This document shows, piece after piece, positions 12,872-55,115 of a stretch of DNA of 64,000 bases. Under the pieces are notes generated by a model. It ran no database searches, was not told the origin of the DNA, and saw only the letters and a program-made list of their open reading frames with translations. Origin of the DNA: Minisyncoccota bacterium (GTDB lineage: Bacteria; Patescibacteriota; Minisyncoccia; Phycocordibacterales; UBA12088); the NCBI GenBank assembly GCA_041920275.1, contig JAYRSE010000007.1, positions 20,517-84,516 of the forward strand, written 5' to 3'. Positions within the stretch are counted from its first letter, which is position 1; the number at the start of each line of letters is the position of its first letter. Position numbers and translations under genes: made by a program.

Positions 12872-13290
12872 AAATCGTACTAATCAGTAGCACAATCGCA
12901 CTTCTCGCACTTGTGGGTTGTGCGAACAAACCGACATCGGAATGCGTTGAAGTCGGCCCTCAAGGAAGTACTCGCCTAACACACTGCTACGTCGACAACG
13001 GCATCCGTGGACACGGCGGACCTGTTGTCATCGATCGCTATGCGTTCGTAAAGGACGGGGCTTCCACACAGGTGAAGCATATCGGTGGTGCTGCGAACGT
13101 CGGCACCGCACAAGGCGTGCTTCAAAATCTGGCGAGCTCTGTGCCTGTTGCGACAGCGAGCGTCATCGGGGATCACATGAAGGCGCAGGCCATGTCCGAG
13201 TCTTCCGGTGGAAATCCCGTTTTTGTCAACGTCGGCACCCGTGTCGACGTCGACCAAAATGGAGGATGCAAAGGAGACTGCGACCTCTAG
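12868..13290 (+). CDS. lipoprotein, hypothetical
   Basis: MKIVLISSTIALLALVGC lipobox. Translationally coupled to the upstream gene. Confidence 0.5.
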   Translation: MKIVLISSTIALLALVGCANKPTSECVEVGPQGSTRLTHCYVDNGIRGHGGPVVIDRYAFVKDGASTQVKHIGGAANVGTAQGVLQNLASSVPVATASVIGDHMKAQAMSESSGGNPVFVNVGTRVDVDQNGGCKGDCDL

Positions 13291-14518: not shown

Positions 14519-15835
14519 TCACGCCTCTCGCGCGCGTTTCCCCACGAGCGCACGTCGCCTCACTGCGCGGTGTTTGGCGATCGAAAAGCGGTGCGCTTCG
14601 GCGTTCGCAAGGAGCGCCTCGCGCGCATGGGTGGTGCGCCACGTGAGCGCGCCGATAAGCTCCTTGGGTCGGTGATGCTCGTCCTTGGTGACCGCGACCA
14701 CGGGTAATTCGATACCAATCTCGCGCATGACCGCGCGTGCGACATTGAGCTGTGCCTTACCACCATCGACCACGAGCACGCGCGGATACTCCCACTCCGG
14801 ATGGCCGAAACGCCGCATCAGCACCTCGCGCAACGCCGCAGTGTCGTTGCTCTGCGTCACGCTGCGGATTGTGAACGAGCGGTACTCGCTCGTGCGCGGC
14901 TCCCCGCCCACGACGACCGTCATGACCCCGACCATATCCCCGCCCTGCAAATGCGCCACGTCGTACGCTTCCACACGTACCTCGTCGCACTCGCGCTCCG
15001 CATCGTCCGCACCCCGACGAAGAAGCGATACGTCGTTTATGTGTCGCAATGCTTCGATCTGTCGTTTGATGCGCTGTGCCTCCTCGAACGCTTCTTTGCG
15101 CGCGCACGCATGCATATCGCGCTCCAGACTTCGCAGCAGATGTTGCTTCTTTCCTTCGAACAAAAGCCGCAGGTGCTTTACCGTGCGCGCATACTCATTT
15201 TCGGTCGTACCTTCGGGCGGATACACGCCGATCGACTCGTTGAAACGGAGCTTTCGATCCGCTCGCGCACGAAGAGAAAGCACGGGAAGCGTGGTATCGT
15301 AAAATGGAAATATTTTTCGAATGAGCTTGAGCGCTTCTTTGAGTTGTGCGGCGTGAACGAACGGGCCGAAGTATGGCGGTTCCGCATCCACATTCGACGT
15401 CGATGCATGCTCGCGCAGTTTCGCTTCGAGCTCCTTCCCTCGCACCACGAGCACTCGTGGAAACGGTTCGTGAACGGTCAACACCACATAGTTCCAACTC
15501 TTGTCGTCCTTGTCGCGCGTATTGTAGCGGGGCTTGAGCTCCTTGATACACTTCGCCTCCAGAATGAGCGCCTCGAGCACGCTATCGGTCGCACGGAAGT
15601 CCACCCGCTTCGCCTCCTCCACCATGTGCACCATGTGAAGACCGCGTGTCGTCGCAAGGTCTGCCGCAAAGTAACTGCGCACCCGATCGGTAAGCGACGT
15701 CGCCTTGCCTACATAGAGCACCTCGCGGCGAGCACCGATGAAAAAATACACGCCCGGAGTATCGGGCAAGGCGGAAACACTGGGGTGAGCGCGCAACATA
15801 CGCACTGATGATACCAACATATCCACCATGCGCAA
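14519..15835 (-). CDS. uvrC: excinuclease ABC subunit C, short form without the C-terminal (HhH)2 region
   Basis: GIY-YIG nuclease motif PGVYFFIGARREVLYVGKATSL. UVR-like helix EEAQRIKRQIEALRH. RNase-H-like endonuclease block VEAYDVAHLQGGDMVG. Only 438 aa. Confidence 0.7.
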   Translation of the reverse strand: MRMVDMLVSSVRMLRAHPSVSALPDTPGVYFFIGARREVLYVGKATSLTDRVRSYFAADLATTRGLHMVHMVEEAKRVDFRATDSVLEALILEAKCIKELKPRYNTRDKDDKSWNYVVLTVHEPFPRVLVVRGKELEAKLREHASTSNVDAEPPYFGPFVHAAQLKEALKLIRKIFPFYDTTLPVLSLRARADRKLRFNESIGVYPPEGTTENEYARTVKHLRLLFEGKKQHLLRSLERDMHACARKEAFEEAQRIKRQIEALRHINDVSLLRRGADDAERECDEVRVEAYDVAHLQGGDMVGVMTVVVGGEPRTSEYRSFTIRSVTQSNDTAALREVLMRRFGHPEWEYPRVLVVDGGKAQLNVARAVMREIGIELPVVAVTKDEHHRPKELIGALTWRTTHAREALLANAEAHRFSIAKHRAVRRRALVGKRAREA

Positions 15836-47603: not shown

Positions 47604-50144
47604 CTAATCGACCAACTTCCACCCTTCAGCCAAAAGCTGCTCGGCTTTTTTGTACTTCATCTCTCGTACCTCACCGTCTTTTGTGACCCGGACCGTATCA
47701 TTGCGACCGTACTGCCGCGCAGATGTTCGGCTACGAACGACCGGCCCCGACATGCCCGTGGTAACGGTCGCGGACACCTGCTGGGCCTTCTCGCTCTCTC
47801 GACGCATGCGCTCCTCCTCGCTCACGAACGCACCTGCGCCGATCTGCGGCAAAAGTTGTGCGATGTGTTCGCCAATATTCGATTCAAGCGCACGAAACAT
47901 CCGTAGTCCTTCCTTGCGGTACTCAATGAGCGGATCGCGCTGCCCTATCGCGCGCAAACGTACCGACCCTCGCAGGTACTCCATCGTCTCAAGATGCTCG
48001 AGCCAAAAGAGGTCGATCGTCTGCATGAGGAGCCGTCGCAACGCCGCATAGAATTCATCCTCACCGAGCTGCTTCTTTTTTTCCTCGACGATCGACATGA
48101 TCGCCTCATCCTGTGCACCGAGCTCGAACAAGAACGCTTCCATGGCCGAACGATCGCCAAGCAGATACCTCCTACGTCGATCATAGATCGCCACACGCTG
48201 GTGGTTCAGGACGTCGTCATAGGCAAGCACGTGCTTCCTTGAGTCGAAATGAAAACCCTCGATGCGCTTTTGCGCACCTTCGATCTGTCGTGAAATGAGG
48301 CGATGCTCGATCGGTGTATCATCCGCTTCGGTCATTCGCTGCATCAGGTTCTTGATGGTCTCATGGTTGCCGAACACCCGCATGAGCTGATCGTCGAGCG
48401 ACACACAGAAAAGCGTTTCTCCGGGATCACCCTGGCGTCCCGCACGGCCACGTAGCTGGTTGTCGATACGTCGCGCCTCATGACGCTCGGTACCGAGCAC
48501 AAAAAGGCCACCGAGCGCACGCACCTCGTCGGCCGCTCCCGGAAGTGCGGGACTTCCGCCAAGCTTGATGTCGACCCCCCTTCCCGCCATGTTGGTCGCG
48601 ATCGTCACCGCACCCTTGCGGCCTGCCTGCGCAACGATCTCACCCTCGCGCTCATGATTCTTTGCGTTCAGCATCTCGTGTGGCACACCGGCACGCGTGA
48701 GATAGGCGGAAAGCTGCTCGTTCTTTTCAATGGAGGCGGTACCGATGAGGATCGGTTGCCCCTTTTCGTGCACCTCGCGCACCATGCGCGCGATGGCGGC
48801 GAATTTACCCGCCTCGTTGCGGAAAATAAGGTCGTTGCGATCGATACGAGCGATCGTCTTGTTGGTCGGTATCTGCACGACGTCGAGCTTGTACACGCTG
48901 TAGAACTCCTCGGCCGAGGTTTCCGCGGTACCGGTCATACCGGCAAGTTTCTCGTACATGCGGAAGAAATTCTGGTAGGTCACCGACGCATAGGTGCGAC
49001 TCTCGCGCTGCACCGTCACACCCTCTTTCGCTTCAACCGCCTGATGCAGCCCCTCGCTCCAGCGCCTTCCCGGTTGCATACGGCCGGTGAACTCATCAAC
49101 GATCACGATCTGGTCGTCGCGGACCACGTAGTGTCGGTCGCGCTCAAAAAGCGCCTTGGCGCGGACCGACGTTTCGAGGTGATGCACGTACTTGATACCG
49201 GCATCCGTGTAGATGTTCTCCACCCCGAGCGCTTGTTGCGCCTTCTCGATGCCGCTGTCGGTGAGCTGAACGGCACGAAGTTTTTCATCCTTGGTATAAT
49301 CTTCACCTTCGACAAGGGTGCGTGCGATCTTTGCGAACGTATCGTAGAGCGAGCCGCTCGCATCGGCGGGCGCACTGATGATGAGCGGGGTTCGCGCCTC
49401 ATCAATAAGAATGGAATCGACTTCGTCGATGATCGCAAAGTGCGGTGCACGTTGCCGAAGATTGTGCGCCTCGTACTCGATATTGTCACGCAGGTAGTCG
49501 AACCCGAACTCACTGTTGGTACCGTACGTGATGTCGGCCTCGTACGCCTCTTTGCGCGTGCAAGGGCGAAGAAATTCGTACGCCACTTTGTATGCACCCG
49601 TTTCGTCGCGCGCCGCATCCTCCGGGGAATCTTCTTTGTGCGACGGATCGTAGAGATACGACGCCTGCGTGTTCACAACCCCCACCGAAAGACCCAAAAA
49701 CGCGTACACCTGACCCATCCACACCGCATCACGGCGAGAGAGGTAATCGTTCACCGTGACCACGTGCACACCCTTGCGGGTAAGCGCATTCAAGTACGCC
49801 GGCAATGTGGCGACGAGCGTTTTTCCTTCACCGGTACGCATCTCGGCGATCGAGTGTCGATGCAACACCACACCACCCATGATCTGAACATCGTAATGCC
49901 GTTCACCGAGCACGCGCTTCGCCGCTTCACGCACCACCGCGAACGCCTCGGGGAGAATATGATCGAGCGCTTCACCTCCCAGCACTCGCTCGGAGAGATG
50001 CTGCGTCTGCTCGCGCAATCTCGCATCATCCATTGCCGCCACACGTGCTTCTTCGGCATTTACGGCTCGCACAACCTCTTCAAGCTCACGCAAGGTGCGC
50101 CTGTTGGTGTTGTCACGAAAAAACTGCTTCAGCGAGAATGAGAA
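47604..50144 (-). CDS. secA: preprotein translocase ATPase SecA
   Basis: Start MFSFSLKQ. EMRTGEGKTLVATLPAYLNAL and DExD motor motifs. 846 aa. Confidence 0.95.
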   Translation of the reverse strand, partial: FSFSLKQFFRDNTNRRTLRELEEVVRAVNAEEARVAAMDDARLREQTQHLSERVLGGEALDHILPEAFAVVREAAKRVLGERHYDVQIMGGVVLHRHSIAEMRTGEGKTLVATLPAYLNALTRKGVHVVTVNDYLSRRDAVWMGQVYAFLGLSVGVVNTQASYLYDPSHKEDSPEDAARDETGAYKVAYEFLRPCTRKEAYEADITYGTNSEFGFDYLRDNIEYEAHNLRQRAPHFAIIDEVDSILIDEARTPLIISAPADASGSLYDTFAKIARTLVEGEDYTKDEKLRAVQLTDSGIEKAQQALGVENIYTDAGIKYVHHLETSVRAKALFERDRHYVVRDDQIVIVDEFTGRMQPGRRWSEGLHQAVEAKEGVTVQRESRTYASVTYQNFFRMYEKLAGMTGTAETSAEEFYSVYKLDVVQIPTNKTIARIDRNDLIFRNEAGKFAAIARMVREVHEKGQPILIGTASIEKNEQLSAYLTRAGVPHEMLNAKNHEREGEIVAQAGRKGAVTIATNMAGRGVDIKLGGSPALPGAADEVRALGGLFVLGTERHEARRIDNQLRGRAGRQGDPGETLFCVSLDDQLMRVFGNHETIKNLMQRMTEADDTPIEHRLISRQIEGAQKRIEGFHFDSRKHVLAYDDVLNHQRVAIYDRRRRYLLGDRSAMEAFLFELGAQDEAIMSIVEEKKKQLGEDEFYAALRRLLMQTIDLFWLEHLETMEYLRGSVRLRAIGQRDPLIEYRKEGLRMFRALESNIGEHIAQLLPQIGAGAFVSEEERMRRESEKAQQVSATVTTGMSGPVVRSRTSARQYGRNDTVRVTKDGEVREMKYKKAEQLLAEGWKLVD

Positions 50145-50389
50145 CATTGCATCGATTGTACCATGTGTACCCCTCGACGCCAGTTGACATACCACATGCG
50201 TAGACTTATATACACTCGCTTTCACGCCGGTCACCGGTCGGTCGATTCACGGTCCATCCGCCTCACAAGGAACACGGTTGCGCATGGTGTTCAGATCGGT
50301 AGTACATCACAAAGATACCACCTCGCGAAAGATCGCGCACTCCCTCCGCATAAACATGATGCAGATTGCCCATGATCCACATATGTTCC

Positions 50390-50434
50390 ATGACCACGAA
50401 ACAAGCCGCTGGAGGCGGCTTGTTTCGTGGTCAT
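50390..50434. terminator. 20-bp perfect-stem hairpin ATGACCACGAAACAAGCCGC-TGGAG-GCGGCTTGTTTCGTGGTCAT
   Basis: Lies 10 nt downstream of the minus-strand KA-rich gene stop and upstream of secA. No clean U-tract on either side. Confidence 0.45.
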
Positions 50435-50443
50435 GAGAGAAGA

Positions 50444-50551
50444 CTATTTCTTCTTTGCAGCCTTCTTTGCTGCGGGCTTCTTTGCCGCCGTCTTCTTTGC
50501 TGCGGGCTTCTTGGCTGCAACCTTCTTTACCGCCTTTTTCTTTGCTGGCAT
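50444..50551 (-). CDS. 35-aa Lys/Ala-rich histone H1-like basic micro-protein
   Basis: MPAKKKAVKKVAAKKPAAKKTAAKKPAAKKAAKKK with KKPAAKK repeats. Confidence 0.45.
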   Translation of the reverse strand: MPAKKKAVKKVAAKKPAAKKTAAKKPAAKKAAKKK

Positions 50552-50581
50552 GGTTGTGGTGGTTATGTGGGAAGTAATGAA

Positions 50582-50756
50582 CGACGTCGACCAAACTTTC
50601 GTCGTTAACTCATCAACATTATCATGCAAACGCATGTGTGACACAATGCACAATCGATAGCATGAGTGTGGATAAGTGCTTCGACGTCGATGTGTGTTTA
50701 GCGTGCCACACTGCCTGTTCGACGTCGATACTTTACATGGTCATTTCGACGTCGAA
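50582..50756. promoter_or_regulatory. cluster of four palindromic sites with core CGACGTCG (50582, 50680, 50718, 50745)
   Basis: TTCGACGTCGAA perfect 12-mer palindrome at 50745-50756. TTCGACGTCGAT at 50680 and 50718. aCGACGTCGAc at 50582. Confidence 0.4.
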
Positions 50757-51087
50757 AGACGTTTAGCGCTTATGTAGCTTCGATAATTTGCCTTGCTTAT
50801 ATAAGTACTTCCACTGCGTTCGTATCCATGACCATGGATTGCTTCGCTGCGGCTCGGAAAGACGACGATGGACCGAACGGTGGGTCGCGAATGGTGTGCA
50901 CCTGTACATACTTCCACGCAATCGTCCGTCTTCGCGAGGAGCGTAACCGCAGTGGAGCGATGTGGCGACACGGGGTCGTCGCAGCCTCATTTCTTCACAC
51001 GAGCCGAGTTAAGAGATCCGGGTCGTCGTTTCGCAAGTTTGTACTCGGAGAGTGCGGTTGCAGCGGGTAACGCGATCGATCACCACT

Positions 51088-52140
51088 TTATGAAACGGTG
51101 TCGAAACCTGCGGGCGGTCGCGCGATGCAGACCTCCGGTTCAATATGTATCGCGGTACGCCGCTTCACATCGTCCTCAATATCCCGCGCAAGCGCAAGGA
51201 GGTCATTTGCGGTACCCCCACCGTAATGCACAAGCACAAGCGCATGAGCATCCCAAGTACCGACCGAACCCACACGCTTCCCTTTCCATCCAAGAGTCTC
51301 GAGCAGCCATGCAAGAGGGATCTTGACTCGCACATCATCCACCGGGTACTGCGGTACCGGCTGTTTGAGCCATTGCTCAATGACCTGAATGGAAGACCTG
51401 CTCACCACCGGATTCTTAAAGAATGAACCCGCGGTACCCACCGAAGCGAGGTCCGGGAATTTCCTACCTCGTATTTCACGAAGCGCCTCACGCACTTCAA
51501 GCGGACTTTGCGGCGCCTTGTTCGCAAATCGCTCCGCCAGATCTTTATACTCGATCACCGGCGCATGATGTGTTCTCATGCGGTAGGCAACACGAGTGAC
51601 GATGTACGACATGCCTTCCGCATGTTTAAAAATGCTGTCTCGATACCCGAACGCACACGCACTCGGCGACAAGATATGAAGCGCCTCATCTCGACGATCG
51701 TAGACCTCCACCCAGTCGATACGATCACTTACGGAGACGCCATAACAACCCACATTTTGAACCGGTGTGGCACCGACACTGCCGGGCACGTAGGAGAGAT
51801 TTTCCAAACCCCAAAAACCCTGCGAGACGGTCTCTTCCACAAGCGCATCCCAGCGCATGCCGGCACCCGCCACAACTCGCGCATCACCTTTGGTGTCCTC
51901 TTTGTACTCGGTACCTGCAATGGCGATATGAATCACCAGGCCGGGCCAACCTTCTTCGGTAAAGAGCGTGTTGGACCCGCCACCGAGCACCCACACCGGC
52001 AGACGCTTTTCTTTTGCGAAAGCCATCGCTTCGCGGAGATCGGCTATGGAATATACCGAAACATAAAAACGTGCCACACCACCGAGGCGTAGCGTCGTGA
52101 GTTCCGCAAGGGAGACATTTTCGAGTACCTGCATGAACAT
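51088..52140 (-). CDS. murB: UDP-N-acetylenolpyruvoylglucosamine reductase
   Basis: FAD-binding PCMH domain LRLGGVARFYVSVYSIADLREAMAFAKEKRLPVWVLGGGSN. Start at MFMQVLENVSL. Confidence 0.85.
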   Translation of the reverse strand: MFMQVLENVSLAELTTLRLGGVARFYVSVYSIADLREAMAFAKEKRLPVWVLGGGSNTLFTEEGWPGLVIHIAIAGTEYKEDTKGDARVVAGAGMRWDALVEETVSQGFWGLENLSYVPGSVGATPVQNVGCYGVSVSDRIDWVEVYDRRDEALHILSPSACAFGYRDSIFKHAEGMSYIVTRVAYRMRTHHAPVIEYKDLAERFANKAPQSPLEVREALREIRGRKFPDLASVGTAGSFFKNPVVSRSSIQVIEQWLKQPVPQYPVDDVRVKIPLAWLLETLGWKGKRVGSVGTWDAHALVLVHYGGGTANDLLALARDIEDDVKRRTAIHIEPEVCIARPPAGFDTVS

Positions 52141-52423
52141 GACCGGTACCCCGTATGGAACGCCGGTGCGAGCTCCACGAAAAACTATTTTGTGAGTGCC
52201 GCGGCGCTCCATGCGAGGAGCCGTGCACGGAGTATAGCATGGTGCAGTAAGTGGGGCAAAACAGACACGTAAAATCCCCACGAGGGGGATTTTACGCAGT
52301 TTTTCGTTAGGCAGAGTTTTGCACTCTGGCACTCACCCCCACAGTATAGCACAATTCCTTAAACATGCAAATGGTGGTGACTGTCGTGCCCCGCTACACT
52401 GTCGCACCAAAACACTACTGCCC

Positions 52424-52470
52424 GAAAAAACGGCGGAGGGGCACACAAAACATACTCCCCAACCTCCGCT
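52424..52470 (-). terminator. hairpin (GCGGAGG ... CCTCCGC) followed by TTTTTT on the minus strand, right after the AbrB-like gene stop
   Basis: Minus-strand reading GCGGAGG-loop-CCTCCGCCGTTTTTTCGGG. Confidence 0.4.
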
Positions 52471-52678
52471 ACTTTTTCTTCGAAGTCCGCAAGTCACTGA
52501 TCATGATCGCGTCATTTCGACGTCGAACAATGACCTTCTGCCCATCTTTCCATTTCAGCTCACGCAAGAGATCGGGCGGCAAGACCACGGTCGTTGAACC
52601 ATTCGCCTGTTCCTGTATCCTACGGATGGCATGCCCCTCCGCAGACACCCTCTCTTGCGCGCTCTTTTTTTCAGCCAT
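52469..52678 (-). CDS. AbrB/MazE (SpoVT-AbrB fold) family DNA-binding protein, stand-alone
   Basis: STTVVLPPDLLRELKWKDGQKVIVRRRNDAIMISD fits the swapped-hairpin AbrB-N pattern. 69 aa. Confidence 0.55.
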   Translation of the reverse strand: MAEKKSAQERVSAEGHAIRRIQEQANGSTTVVLPPDLLRELKWKDGQKVIVRRRNDAIMISDLRTSKKK

Positions 52679-52725: not shown

Positions 52726-55014
52726 CTACTGTTGAATCGGTGCCGATGCGCTTTGCACTTCGCGAATGAACGCATCCATTTGATCCTTGAACTCGGGCTT
52801 TCGCTCAGCAACTCCGCGCAAGAGAGCGACCGCTTCGTTCACACGGCCGAGCTCACGATATGCCGCAGCGAGCGACACGATCTCCTGCATGTTCTCGGGA
52901 TCCTTCTCGACCCGCTGCTCCAAGATCTTGGAAGCGATGTCGTAGCGTTTCGCCTGCACCCATGCCATAAAGAGGCGCGAATCGTCGACCGCGGGTGTAC
53001 CGAAGCGTTCCGTAAGCATGTCGACCGCTTCTTTGTCCCTACCGGTACGCACCAGTGCCGTGGCGTACAACCGCGCAAGATCATCGAACTGCGGCGCCGA
53101 CTCATACGCACGTTTGAAAAGCTCCATACCCTCCTCGCTCTTGCCGCGCAAGATACGCAGCTCACCGAGCTGCATGAGCGCGTGCTGCTTGGTGGGGGTA
53201 AGCTCCACCGCCCGCTCAAAGGCCTTTTCCGAATCTTCCAAACGTCCGGTGTTCGCAAGGAGCGAACCATGGAAAAGCCACAGACGTGCCGACTCACCAT
53301 TGCGCCCAAGCTCGCGTTCCATCTCGGATACGGCGAGGGTCACGAACGCGTCCTTGGTCGCCTGATCGATCCCCTGCGCGCGCGACATGTCCGCCGCACG
53401 TTGCACCAGCTGTTCACGCACCTCTTGCCTGCCAAGCGCATCTATCGCGAGCGCTTGTTTGTACTTCTCGAGCATCTCCTCGGGAGACTGTTCCACCACC
53501 GAACCATCGGCAAGTGCACGCTGCGGCACCAGTGCAGAGATCAGCAACCGCGAGGTGGTGATGCCCGGGATGTTCACGTACCAGATCACAAACCCGCCGA
53601 CCACTAGCGCCACCGGGAGCGCCACCGCCACGGCCGTCTGCTCGCTCATTTCGTGCTTTGTACACAGCGGTGCGTGCCCCTGGGTGACCCGCCAGTGCAG
53701 GTACGCAAGCACGCTCGCATACATGAAGTAGCTCACCAGGTTGTCGAAAACGAAGAGGTTGTGGAACATGTAGGCCGCAAGCAAGCCGGTCCACAGTGCG
53801 CGCTCCGTGGCGGAAAATTCATCATTGCGCTTTGATGCAAGTGCACGAATTGCTTGGAACGACACGAGCATGCGCCACGACCAGGTGCGTTCACGCGGGT
53901 CGAGGAACCAGAGATGCACCACAAGAGCGAGAGGTACAAGAAGGTAGGTAATGAGGCCGAGGAAACCGGCGGAAATGAGCCAGTCGAAGAAGATGTTGTG
54001 CGTACGGTCGAACCACGGCTCCTCGCCATACATGTTGGGATCGTAATGCTTGGAAAACACGTATTCGTAGTTGTCCTGACCCCAGCCTAAAATGGGGCGC
54101 TCTTTCACACCCTGCCATGCCATGCCCCAGTTCATGAAGCGCGCATGGACCGTGCCGGTCGAGAGTTCGATCTGGGTGAAGCGGCTGATGACCGGAGTGT
54201 TTTTTCCAAACTCGGTGTCGCGTATCGCGTACCCGCCACCAACGATCAGTGCGACAAGTACCAAACCGCCCAGTGCGACCTTGCGCAACACGGGACGCTC
54301 ACGCTCAAAGATCGCAATGAGAAGCGTGGTGATGAGCGCACCACCCAAAAAGCCGAGCACGGTACCGCGCGTGGCGGTGATCACCATCGTGAGTATGTGC
54401 AAAAGCGCGATAAAGCCCATGAGAGCCTGGTGCCATGCGGCTCCACGCCACCGCACCATGAGCAGAAACGCAATGAAAACATGGAAGAGCGTATATACCG
54501 CGAGATAGATCGGGTTGCCAAAGGTACCATCGATGCGAGGAAACACGAAGGAAGGAAGCACCTCAAACGCCGGCTTCAAGCCCACAAAGGCGATGATCAC
54601 GCTCACGCCGAGCGAAGAGTACCAAAACGCATTCCATAATCGCTCAGTGGAGAGCATCACCGAAGCCACCACGAAGTACGCAAAGACGTGGAGCAAGCCG
54701 ACATACCCTTCCATGCGCTCGAAATTGCTCCAAAAACTCTTGAACGGATTGGCACTGAAGATGGTCGCCAAACCGACCGCAAGCATGAAGAGCGTCATTG
54801 AGGCAAGTACCCACGAAAAGCGTGGCCGGTACCGAGCGTCGAGCAGGGCGAGCAGCGTCCATCCCACGAGCGCCACTTCCACCAATATGCGAAACGTGAA
54901 GTTTTTGCCCGTGATATACGGGAAGAACATCGTAGCGGAGACAATAAAGGGAATAATGATCGGCACCGCAAAGAGAGCGCCGAGGGTCACCCAGCGAAGT
55001 GTTTGTTGTAGCAT
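52726..55014 (-). CDS. O-antigen ligase/polymerase-like (Wzy_C) multi-TM protein fused to C-terminal TPR repeats
   Basis: About 12 TM in the N-terminal 450 aa, with a periplasmic loop typical of the Wzy/WaaL family. The C-terminal third is TPR-like (AYESAPQFDDLARLYATALVRTG ...). Start at MLQQTLRW. Confidence 0.65.
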   Translation of the reverse strand: MLQQTLRWVTLGALFAVPIIIPFIVSATMFFPYITGKNFTFRILVEVALVGWTLLALLDARYRPRFSWVLASMTLFMLAVGLATIFSANPFKSFWSNFERMEGYVGLLHVFAYFVVASVMLSTERLWNAFWYSSLGVSVIIAFVGLKPAFEVLPSFVFPRIDGTFGNPIYLAVYTLFHVFIAFLLMVRWRGAAWHQALMGFIALLHILTMVITATRGTVLGFLGGALITTLLIAIFERERPVLRKVALGGLVLVALIVGGGYAIRDTEFGKNTPVISRFTQIELSTGTVHARFMNWGMAWQGVKERPILGWGQDNYEYVFSKHYDPNMYGEEPWFDRTHNIFFDWLISAGFLGLITYLLVPLALVVHLWFLDPRERTWSWRMLVSFQAIRALASKRNDEFSATERALWTGLLAAYMFHNLFVFDNLVSYFMYASVLAYLHWRVTQGHAPLCTKHEMSEQTAVAVALPVALVVGGFVIWYVNIPGITTSRLLISALVPQRALADGSVVEQSPEEMLEKYKQALAIDALGRQEVREQLVQRAADMSRAQGIDQATKDAFVTLAVSEMERELGRNGESARLWLFHGSLLANTGRLEDSEKAFERAVELTPTKQHALMQLGELRILRGKSEEGMELFKRAYESAPQFDDLARLYATALVRTGRDKEAVDMLTERFGTPAVDDSRLFMAWVQAKRYDIASKILEQRVEKDPENMQEIVSLAAAYRELGRVNEAVALLRGVAERKPEFKDQMDAFIREVQSASAPIQQ

Positions 55015-55115
55015 GGGACCACTATACCACGGGGCATGCCGACGTCGAAGACTTGACGTACGCGCGCGGGAGTGTGGCGCATACAAGCGCCACAATCTCC
55101 CCCGCCCTTCCACCG

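What the first reader, a model, noticed from the sequence alone, without database searches (positions are those of the whole stretch)
50582..50756. Over-represented palindromic motif TCGACGTCGA: four sites upstream of the KA-rich histone-like gene plus copies at 52516, 55040 and 13244
Perfect 12-mer palindromes TTCGACGTCGAA at 50745 and 52516, sharing an identical 17-mer GTCATTTCGACGTCGAA. Near-perfect copies at 50680 and 50718. A core copy at 50582, 30 bp upstream of the KA-rich gene start. A core at 55040, 26 bp upstream of the Wzy-TPR/AbrB-like operon start. GTCGACGTCGAC inside the lipoprotein gene at 13242. A specific 10-mer is expected about 0.06 times in 64 kb, so this is a genuine motif. 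It is most likely an operator for a dimeric regulator. One copy lies inside the AbrB-like gene, so the AbrB-family protein is a candidate binder or is itself regulated.
Basis: seen in the sequence. Interest (0 to 1): 0.55.

Follow-up and report, generated by a model that had tools for sequence, protein, structure and literature searches.

The report
Conserved operator of AbrB-like regulator
The repeated palindrome TTCGACGTCGAA is a real, evolutionarily conserved DNA control site in a group of uncultured Patescibacteria, most likely the docking site of a tiny AbrB-type repressor that controls its own operon and a small histone-like gene; it is a solid but conventional kind of gene switch.

Summary
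TCGACGTCGA occurs 6 times in the window against 0.2-0.3 expected. Its 8-bp core CGACGTCG occurs 14 times against about 4.

The window comes from a Paceibacteria/Kaiserbacteria-like bacterium. I compared it with 12 related uncultured species that also carry the small AbrB/MazE-fold gene (window 52469-52678). In them the core recurs at three places:
- it overlaps the -35/spacer of the leaderless promoter of the Wzy_C-TPR/AbrB-like operon;
- it flanks the promoter of the KA-rich gene, with 1-3 copies upstream of a DnaA-box-like TTATCCACA and one copy in the leader;
- it lies inside or just upstream of the AbrB-like gene.

Against the closest relative, the three upstream 12-mers are 36/36 identical while the spacers between them are 46% identical. 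Paceibacteria loci without the AbrB-like gene keep the same promoters but lack the palindrome.

The best reading is an operator for the AbrB-like dimer, giving autorepression plus repression of the KA-rich gene. Binding itself is inferred, not shown. Most coding copies, including 13244, look like non-conserved background.

This is a new regulon of a known kind, of moderate interest. In passing I found a covarying, unannotated RNA element in the murB leader.

The parts
50745..50756 (.). Distal operator O1, TTCGACGTCGAA (perfect 12-bp palindrome), upstream of the KA-rich gene promoter
   Evidence: It is 12/12 identical in relative L088 while the adjacent spacer is 40% identical.
50718..50729 (.). 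Distal operator O2, TTCGACGTCGAT, 27 bp from O1
   Evidence: The same 27-bp spacing is seen in L088 and L084.
50680..50691 (.). Distal operator O3, TTCGACGTCGAT, 38 bp from O2 and 4 nt from the DnaA-box-like element
50667..50675 (-). TTATCCACA, a perfect DnaA-box consensus, about 45 nt upstream of the -10 of the KA-rich gene
   Evidence: It is present at the same place in nearly all Paceibacteria loci: 52 copies in 985 kb against 7.5 expected.
50618..50646 (-). Inferred core promoter of the KA-rich gene: -35 TTGTGT (50646-50641), 17-nt spacer, -10 GATAAT (50623-50618)
   Evidence: GATAAT and TTGTnn are conserved across about 20 species. The region is 27/29 identical to L088. The strict consensus scan did not call it, so the promoter is inferred from conservation.
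50579..50592 (-). Leader operator O4, GGTCGACGTCGTTC (core 50582-50589), at about +22 to +29 of the inferred transcript and 30 nt before the ATG
   Evidence: GGTCGACGTCG(T/C) is present in all 9 AbrB-positive species whose KA promoter is in hand. It is absent from 19 AbrB-negative KA leaders, which have only GGTCGA.
50444..50551 (-). KA-rich 35-aa gene (MPAKKKAVKK...), an H1/Hc2-like basic protein and the regulated target
   Evidence: The ORF is conserved upstream of secA in more than 20 loci. Hits to Pfam HC2 and NCBIfam histone-H1-like families are below threshold.
52469..52678 (-). AbrB/MazE-fold 69-aa protein, the proposed binder
52516..52527 (.). Operator inside the AbrB-like ORF, TTCGACGTCGAA, encoding RRR as CGA CGT CGA
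   Evidence: codon usage gives p about 0.006 for this codon choice. The core is conserved at the same codons in L088 and L090.
52726..55014 (-). Wzy_C (O-antigen-ligase-like) plus TPR membrane protein gene. It is the first gene of the operon that ends with the AbrB-like gene.
   Evidence: The AbrB-like gene lies directly downstream of it in every locus of this subfamily that was fetched.
55038..55049 (-). Operator at the Wzy/AbrB promoter, TTCGACGTCGGC on the - strand (core 55040-55047). Its left half is the -35 hexamer.
   Evidence: The promoter scan finds -35 TCGACG, a 16-nt spacer, TG and TATAGT. The core is exact in 6 species and has one mismatch in 5 more.
55021..55026 (-). -10 TATAGT (extended, TGgTATAGT) placed 6 nt before the ATG, which implies a leaderless Wzy mRNA
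13243..13254 (.). GTCGACGTCGAC inside a lipoprotein-like gene; probably a background copy
   Evidence: It sits in frame V-D-V-D. No orthologous sequence was available to test conservation. The other coding copies that could be compared are not conserved.
15393..15404 (.).
   Evidence: frame S-T-S.

Best explanation
TTCGACGTCGAA (invariant core CGACGTCG) is most likely the operator of the small orphan AbrB/MazE-fold protein encoded at 52469-52678. One symmetric dimer would bind each palindrome.

Three sets of sites are proposed to act as follows.
1. One operator supplies the -35/spacer of the leaderless promoter of the Wzy_C-TPR/AbrB-like operon. Binding there would exclude RNA polymerase and give negative autoregulation.
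2. At the KA-rich (histone-H1-like) gene, three operators lie at about -75, -113 and -140, next to a DnaA-box-like element. A fourth lies in the transcribed leader at about +26. Bound dimers would repress by roadblock, and possibly by looping between the upstream and downstream sites.
3. A further operator sits inside the regulator's own coding sequence.

Shown here:
- the motif excess;
- its exact placement;
- its conservation as footprint-like islands across 12 species;
- its restriction to the clade that has the AbrB-like gene;
- the fold of the protein.

Inferred:
- that this protein, rather than another, binds the sites;
- that binding represses;
- the transcription start sites.
For: Motif excess.

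Phylogenetic footprint against L088 (SecA 97% identical): O1-O3 are 36/36 identical and the spacers 19/41. The DnaA box, the core promoter (27/29) and the leader (65/66) are also near-identical.

The same architecture (distal site(s), TTATCCACA, GATAAT, GGTCGACGTCG(T/C), ATG) is found in window, L088, L103, L084, L100, L102, L101, L099 and L003. Their SecA identity to the window falls to 70% and their GC ranges from 38 to 56%. In six of these relatives (L003, L084, L088, L090, L093, L095; about 97 kb) all 16 exact cores lie in the three regulatory regions. The other five show some extra copies.

Wzy/AbrB promoter: the core is exact in 6 species and has one mismatch in 5. It always overlaps the -35/spacer, although its distance to the -10 varies.

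Sites track the AbrB-like gene even when positions turn over:
- internal in window, L088 and L090;
- immediately upstream in L084;
- three tandem (C/T)GACGTC(A/G) copies upstream in L099;
- TCGACGTTGA upstream in L103.

A family HMM finds the AbrB-like gene only in the motif-bearing loci. None of 19 KA promoters and none of 27 Wzy promoters in AbrB-negative loci carry CGACGTCG.

A distant homologue (44% identical) is a Fic-linked antitoxin. From general knowledge, antitoxins of that class autorepress through palindromic operators.
Against: - No binding data exist.
- The gene and the motif are both confined to one clade (SecA at least 70% identical). The co-occurrence therefore amounts to one evolutionary event, and an unlinked regulator with the same distribution cannot be excluded.
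- Only 10-20 kb per relative was examined, not whole genomes.
- The protein has no obvious oligomerisation domain that would support looping.
- Operator spacings of 18, 27 and 38 bp are not integral helical turns.
- The leader site overlaps a GGTCGA element and a possible hairpin that also exist in AbrB-negative species, so part of its conservation may have another cause.
- Coding copies in the window exceed a synonymous-codon null (9 against 2.9, P about 0.001). This excess is unexplained.
Confidence: 0.6

Rival explanations
1. The palindrome is a genuine operator, but for a different regulator encoded elsewhere in the genome. On this view the AbrB-like gene is only one of its targets.
For: All evidence that the sites are functional says nothing about the binder's identity. 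The gene-motif co-occurrence is a single clade-level event. Only part of each genome was seen.
Against: No other DNA-binding gene is shared by the loci (gene tables). Sites keep reappearing at, in or just before the AbrB-like gene although their exact positions change. That pattern is typical of autoregulation. The protein has a fold used by autorepressors that bind palindromes.
Confidence: 0.22
2. The motif marks chromosome-level sites rather than transcription. Examples would be a parS-like centromere, or accessory sites acting with DnaA at the adjacent TTATCCACA box.
For: The distal sites always lie 4-35 nt from a perfect DnaA box. Extra copies occur in coding DNA above a codon-based null. 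The motif resembles parS in being a 12-14 bp palindrome centred on ACGT.
Against: The window has no parS consensus: 2 weak matches against 1.9 expected. The GC skew shows no inversion across the 64 kb. There are only three perfect DnaA boxes. The coding copies in secA and GH57 are not conserved in L088. The conserved copies sit precisely on core-promoter elements.
Confidence: 0.05
3. The leader copy (50582) acts at the RNA level. It would be part of a hairpin (AACGACG...CGTCGTT) or of the Paceibacteria-wide GGUCGA element that sits a fixed 29-40 nt before the start codon, and it would control translation or stability rather than serving as a DNA operator.
For: GGTCGA keeps a nearly constant distance to the ATG in about 20 species while its distance to the -10 varies from 13 to 86 nt. 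By eye, upstream segments complementary to CGTCGTT recur in window, L084, L100, L103 and L102. The leader is 98% identical to that of L088.
Against: This cannot explain the untranscribed distal sites, the Wzy promoter site or the dyad symmetry. The CGTCG extension that completes the palindrome occurs only in the AbrB-positive clade, 9/9 against 0/19. No covariation test was run on this hairpin.
Confidence: 0.1
4. The motif is a by-product of composition or codon usage (RRR or D-V-D codons), a restriction-modification (R-M) or methylation target (GACGTC), or a DNA-uptake-type word.
For: Six of nine coding cores are in the xxC GAC GTC Gxx (D-V) frame. Apart from the one inside the AbrB-like gene, the coding copies that could be compared are not conserved.
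Against: Five cores lie in about 7.8 kb of non-coding DNA. Shuffles and Markov models give 0.2-0.3 against 6 observed. The RRR copy uses an unlikely codon set, p about 0.006. GACGTC itself is not notably enriched or avoided: 24 against 14-35 expected. Six relatives (about 97 kb) have no copies outside the three regulatory regions, which does not fit a genome-wide word.
Confidence: 0.02

Closest known systems
AbrB-type (swapped-hairpin) type II antitoxins that autorepress through palindromic operators, e.g. VapB2 of Rickettsia felis bound to its promoter DNA (PDB 3zvk), MazE, and Fic/Doc partner antitoxins
   Different: No toxin gene is adjacent in any of the 12 species. The protein has no C-terminal toxin-binding tail. 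It always follows a Wzy_C-TPR gene. It appears to control a second, unlinked promoter, that of the KA-rich gene.
Bacillus subtilis AbrB (transition-state regulator) and related free-standing AbrB-family regulators, including the archaeal AbrB-fold 'histone-like' protein of PDB 5itj
   Different: From general knowledge, AbrB has a C-terminal tetramerisation domain and binds loosely defined sites. Here the protein is 58-90 aa and its sites share an invariant 8-bp palindrome.
Multi-operator repression with sites upstream and downstream of a promoter (lac, gal and deo type looping)
   Same: Operators flank the KA-rich promoter on both sides: about -75 to -140 and about +26.
   Different: No oligomerisation domain is evident. 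The spacings are not helically phased. Looping is speculation.

Membership tests
SpoVT/AbrB/MazE swapped-hairpin DNA-binding domain (Pfam PF04014) | Match to the family profile above the curated cut-off | tested here: met
   The window protein scores 26.4 bits against a cut-off of 24.7, E 6.9e-6. Seven of 8 clade members match at E below 0.1. The NCBIfam AbrB, MazE and doc_partner models are hit only below their cut-offs.
SpoVT/AbrB/MazE swapped-hairpin DNA-binding domain (Pfam PF04014) | Three-dimensional fold similar to solved AbrB, MazE or VapB N-domains | tested here: met
SpoVT/AbrB/MazE swapped-hairpin DNA-binding domain (Pfam PF04014) | Dimerisation by strand swapping, and DNA binding | not testable with these tools
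Type II toxin-antitoxin antitoxin (MazE, VapB or Phd/doc-partner type) | A cognate toxin gene immediately adjacent | tested here: not met
   The neighbours are Wzy_C-TPR upstream and murB, DUF6159, rplC or the KA-rich gene downstream. Only the distant homologue P0091 is followed by a Fic gene.
Type II toxin-antitoxin antitoxin (MazE, VapB or Phd/doc-partner type) | C-terminal toxin-neutralising extension | tested here: not met
   The protein ends about 8 residues after the last strand.
Autoregulatory palindromic operator | Dyad symmetry and overlap with the core promoter of the regulator's own operon | tested here: met
   CGACGTCG supplies the -35 (TCGACG) 16 nt before TG-TATAGT. This placement is conserved in 11 species, 6 exact and 5 with one mismatch. 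The promoter is defined by consensus and conservation only.
Autoregulatory palindromic operator | Conservation of the site relative to flanking non-coding DNA | tested here: met
   Operators are 36/36 identical against 19/41 for the spacers. The core is invariant in 35 sites from 12 species.
Autoregulatory palindromic operator | Specific binding by the encoded protein | not testable with these tools
   This needs EMSA, footprinting or DAP-seq.
parS / ParB centromere | Match to TGTTNCACGTGAAACA | tested here: not met
   There are 2 matches at 3 mismatches against 1.9 expected. The motif has an extra base pair in each half-site.
oriC / DnaA-box cluster | Several DnaA boxes together with a GC-skew inversion | tested here: not met
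   There is one box at this locus and three in 64 kb. The cumulative skew is monotonic.
LexA SOS box | Sites upstream of DNA-repair genes | tested here: not met
   uvrA, uvrB and a uvrC-like gene lie in the window, but cores occur only inside uvrA and uvrC coding sequence, not upstream of them. The paper on the Patescibacteria LexA motif (Sanchez-Osuna et al. 2017) could not be read.

The most novel reading that the evidence does not exclude
The AbrB-fold protein may be more than a simple repressor. Some clade members carry a histone-H1-like lysine/alanine tail, and the fold matches an archaeal 'histone-like' AbrB protein. On this reading it is a nucleoid-associated protein that nucleates at specific sequences. 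Together with the DnaA box, it would couple expression of the KA-rich chromatin protein, and of a cell-envelope Wzy_C-TPR protein, to the replication or growth state in reduced-genome CPR (Candidate Phyla Radiation) bacteria. That would make a minimal chromatin and cell-cycle control module. The unexplained excess of coding copies would then be additional nucleation sites.
Probability: 0.12. Interest if true: 0.65.

Novelty: new member of a known kind. Interest (0 to 1): 0.42.

Why it matters
Transcriptional regulation in Patescibacteria (CPR) is almost unexplored, because the organisms are uncultured and encode few regulators. This work gives a concrete, testable regulator-operator pair. Its invariant 8-bp core is conserved across a family-level clade. 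It links a domesticated antitoxin-like AbrB protein to a histone-like gene and to an envelope-biogenesis operon. The protein is 69 aa and the sites are short, so a simple in vitro binding test could establish one of the first CPR regulons. The kind of mechanism itself, palindromic operator and autorepression, is textbook.

Tried and rejected
- Known RNA families: none at gathering threshold in the whole window. Only noise in 50380-51150.
- The 300-nt non-coding stretch 50795-51095 does not fold better than shuffles on either strand, z -0.8 and -0.1. No tRNA or tmRNA was found.
- Codon-bias artefact: rejected as the explanation for the conserved sites. A synonymous-codon shuffle nevertheless left an unexplained excess of coding copies. 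The first attempt timed out.
- parS, oriC and SOS-box readings: rejected (and the positions).
- blastn of the 330-nt spacer against all loci found nothing at E 1e-3. A later search with the L088 spacer found the homology.
- A three-sequence RNAalifold of the conserved non-coding block was inconclusive.
- The metagenome scan with MurB returned only five loci. Relatives were better reached through the AbrB-like protein and exact-protein contig look-ups.
- PDB sequence searches gave no hit. The first AF2 model was of low confidence and Foldseek gave nothing.
- Literature searches for the motif, for AbrB in Patescibacteria and for CPR histone-like proteins found nothing relevant.

Full report
**Observation**

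- TCGACGTCGA is exact at 13244, 15394, 50681, 50719, 50746 and 52517. That is six copies against 0.31 in dinucleotide shuffles and 0.19-0.34 under Markov orders 1-4.
- The 8-bp core CGACGTCG occurs 14 times against 4.4 expected.
- The copies at 50582 and 55040 are cores only.
- The 12-mer TTCGACGTCGAA is perfect at 50745 and 52516, and the shared 17-mer is real.
- The motif is the most frequent 10-mer of the window.

**Context**

All the genes concerned are on the minus strand:
- secA (47604-50234);
- a 35-aa KA-rich ORF (50444-50551);
- a 540-nt spacer;
- murB (51088 to about 52140);
- a 69-aa protein matching Pfam PF04014, the MazE/AbrB family (52469-52678);
- a Wzy_C plus TPR membrane protein (52726-55014).

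SecA relatives place the window in the Paceibacteria/Kaiserbacteria part of the Patescibacteria. The best species-representative genome is 69% identical. Two Logan contigs are the same species.

**Coding copies**

Nine of the 14 cores are in coding DNA.
- Six of them sit in the frame xxC GAC GTC Gxx, which encodes D-V.
- The copies in secA and in the GH57 gene are absent from the closest other species, L088.
- The copy inside the AbrB-like gene is different. It encodes RRR as CGA CGT CGA, a codon choice with probability about 0.006 given local usage. It is conserved at the same codons in two further species.
- A synonymous-codon shuffle still gives fewer coding copies than observed: 2.9 against 9, P about 0.001. 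I cannot explain this mild excess.

**Comparative evidence**

The KA-rich ORF lies upstream of secA in more than 20 Paceibacteria loci. Its upstream region has a common plan:
- TTATCCACA, a perfect DnaA-box consensus;
- then 40-45 nt;
- then TTGTnn, a 17-nt spacer and GATAAT;
- then a leader containing GGTCGA 29-40 nt before the ATG;
- no Shine-Dalgarno sequence.

On top of this plan, CGACGTCG palindromes appear only in a subset of loci. I enlarged that subset by searching for homologues of the AbrB-like protein and fetching their contigs.

The KA promoter is in hand for nine species: window, L088, L103, L084, L100, L102, L101, L099 and L003. Their SecA identity to the window falls to 70% and their GC ranges from 38 to 56%.
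- All nine have GGTCGACGTCG(T/C) in the leader.
- Eight have one to three copies just upstream of the DnaA box.

Aligned with L088, the three distal 12-mers are 36/36 identical and the spacers between them 19/41. The DnaA box, the core promoter (27/29) and the leader (65/66) are also near-invariant. This is a clean phylogenetic footprint.

**The regulator's own operon**

In every one of these species the AbrB-like gene lies directly downstream of the Wzy_C-TPR gene, whatever follows it: murB, the KA gene, DUF6159 or the rplC operon.

The Wzy gene has an extended -10 (TGgTATAGT) 6-7 nt before its ATG. That implies a leaderless mRNA, and the feature is shared by many Paceibacteria. In the AbrB-positive species the palindrome overlaps the -35/spacer of this promoter.
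- It is exact in window, L088, L090, L093, L095 and L099.
- It has one mismatch in L003, L084, L100, L102 and L103.
- The consensus scan independently calls -35 TCGACG, a 16-nt spacer, TG and TATAGT at 55048-55021.

Other sites turn over but stay with the gene:
- internal in three species;
- 45 nt upstream of the ATG in L084;
- three tandem (C/T)GACGTC(A/G) copies upstream in L099;
- TCGACGTTGA upstream in L103.

In six of the relatives (about 97 kb) all 16 exact cores lie in these three regulatory regions.

**Negative set**

A family HMM finds the AbrB-like gene in none of the other SecA-anchored loci. Those loci have the same KA promoters (19) and Wzy promoters (27) but no CGACGTCG there. 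One of them, L016, has TTGACGTCAA near the ATG, but its contig is too short to judge whether the gene is present.

The AbrB-positive species are exactly those with SecA at least 70% identical to the window. The co-occurrence is therefore one clade-level event, not many independent ones.

**The protein**

- The Pfam match is just above the cut-off and recurs in 7 of 8 relatives.
- A model built from 120 homologues has mean pLDDT 73.
- Sequence-only comparisons are weak.
- A 44%-identical homologue precedes a Fic gene, so the family includes true antitoxins.
- The window's subfamily has no adjacent toxin and no C-terminal tail. It is an orphan.

**Mechanism**

I conclude that the palindrome is a protein-binding operator, with high confidence. 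I conclude that the AbrB-like dimer is its binder with moderate confidence, about 0.6 for the whole model. The model has two parts: autorepression at the Wzy/AbrB promoter by occluding the -35, and repression of the KA-rich gene through a leader roadblock assisted by upstream sites. Binding, the sign of regulation and the transcription starts are all inferred.

The rivals are:
- an unlinked regulator;
- an RNA-level role for the leader copy;
- a chromosome-organising role linked to the DnaA box;
- compositional artefact, which is rejected.

**Novelty**

Literature searches found no description of this motif or regulon. The mechanism is of a familiar kind. The regulon and the domesticated antitoxin-like regulator in CPR bacteria are new.

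**Side findings**

- Upstream of murB in all clade members lies a roughly 65-nt element. It has a 17-bp stem with six covarying pairs and an invariant interior, and it matches no Rfam family.
- A conserved non-coding block at 50850-50968 is inverted in L084.
- The DnaA box in front of the KA-rich gene is conserved across the class.

Noticed in passing
window 52140-52215 (- strand); also L003 8419, L084 6003, L088 14480, L093 8343, L099 2935, L100 6386, L101 5021, L102 6571, L103 3789: A conserved element of about 65 nt lies in the murB leader, just after a TATACT -10-like box. Its sequence is ATGGAGCGCCGCGGCACTCAC...AGTTTTTC...GGAGCTCGCACCGGCGTTCCAT. RNAalifold on 9 species gives a 17-bp closing stem with 6 compensatory pairs and an invariant interior. 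It has no Rfam match. Gene callers start murB inside it (MERRGTH...). It is a candidate new cis-regulatory RNA.
   Followed up: partly
window 50667-50675 (- strand) and about 40-45 nt upstream of the -10 of the KA-rich gene in most Paceibacteria loci: A perfect DnaA-box consensus, TTATCCACA, is conserved in front of the KA-rich gene across the class. There are 52 copies in 985 kb of loci against 7.5 expected, and some lie before other genes. This suggests DnaA, or another factor, regulates a histone-like gene.
   Followed up: partly
KA-rich gene leaders, e.g. window 50587-50592 (- strand), L010, L020, L021, L026: GGTCGA sits a nearly fixed 29-40 nt before the start codon in about 20 species, while its distance to the -10 varies from 13 to 86 nt. 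It often follows a hairpin. These leaders have no Shine-Dalgarno sequence. The function is unknown.
   Followed up: partly
window 55014-55029 (- strand) and Wzy_C-TPR orthologues in many loci: An extended -10, TGgTATAGT, lies 6-7 nt before the ATG. This implies a leaderless mRNA for the Wzy_C-TPR gene across Paceibacteria.
   Followed up: partly
window 50850-50968; L088 10340-10470; L084 5355-5400 (opposite orientation): A conserved non-coding block (CCACTGCGGTTnCGCTCCTCGCGAAGACGGnCG...) lies next to the operator cluster. In L084 it lies between the abrB-like gene and murB, and it is inverted. Folding and a three-sequence covariation test were inconclusive.
   Followed up: partly
window 50394-50430: A long perfect hairpin (gaccacgaaacaagccgc...gcggcttgtttcgtggtc) lies right after the KA-rich gene. 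It is probably that gene's terminator. It produced spurious microRNA hits in Rfam.
   Followed up: no
window 50427-50660 (+ strand) against 50444-50551 (- strand): Public gene calls on the same-species contigs annotate the antisense FFAA-rich ORF instead of the KA-rich gene. The KA-rich gene is therefore probably missing from annotations of this clade.
   Followed up: no
window coding regions (10966, 13245, 13933, 15395, 15695, 18610, 44493, 48878): Coding copies of CGACGTCG exceed a synonymous-codon-shuffle expectation: 9 against 2.9 including the abrB-like copy, P about 0.001. The two that could be compared are nevertheless not conserved in the nearest relative. This is unexplained.
   Followed up: partly
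L088 11279-15602 against window 47604-52212: murB has moved. In L088 it lies downstream of secA together with its leader element, and the KA promoter then directly follows the abrB-like gene. Gene order around the regulon is therefore fluid while the operators stay with their promoters.
   Followed up: no
L104 7001-8168: A 44%-identical member of the same protein family is immediately followed by a Fic-domain gene. That pairing indicates a typical antitoxin-toxin pair and suggests the Wzy-linked subfamily is a domesticated orphan antitoxin.
   Followed up: partly
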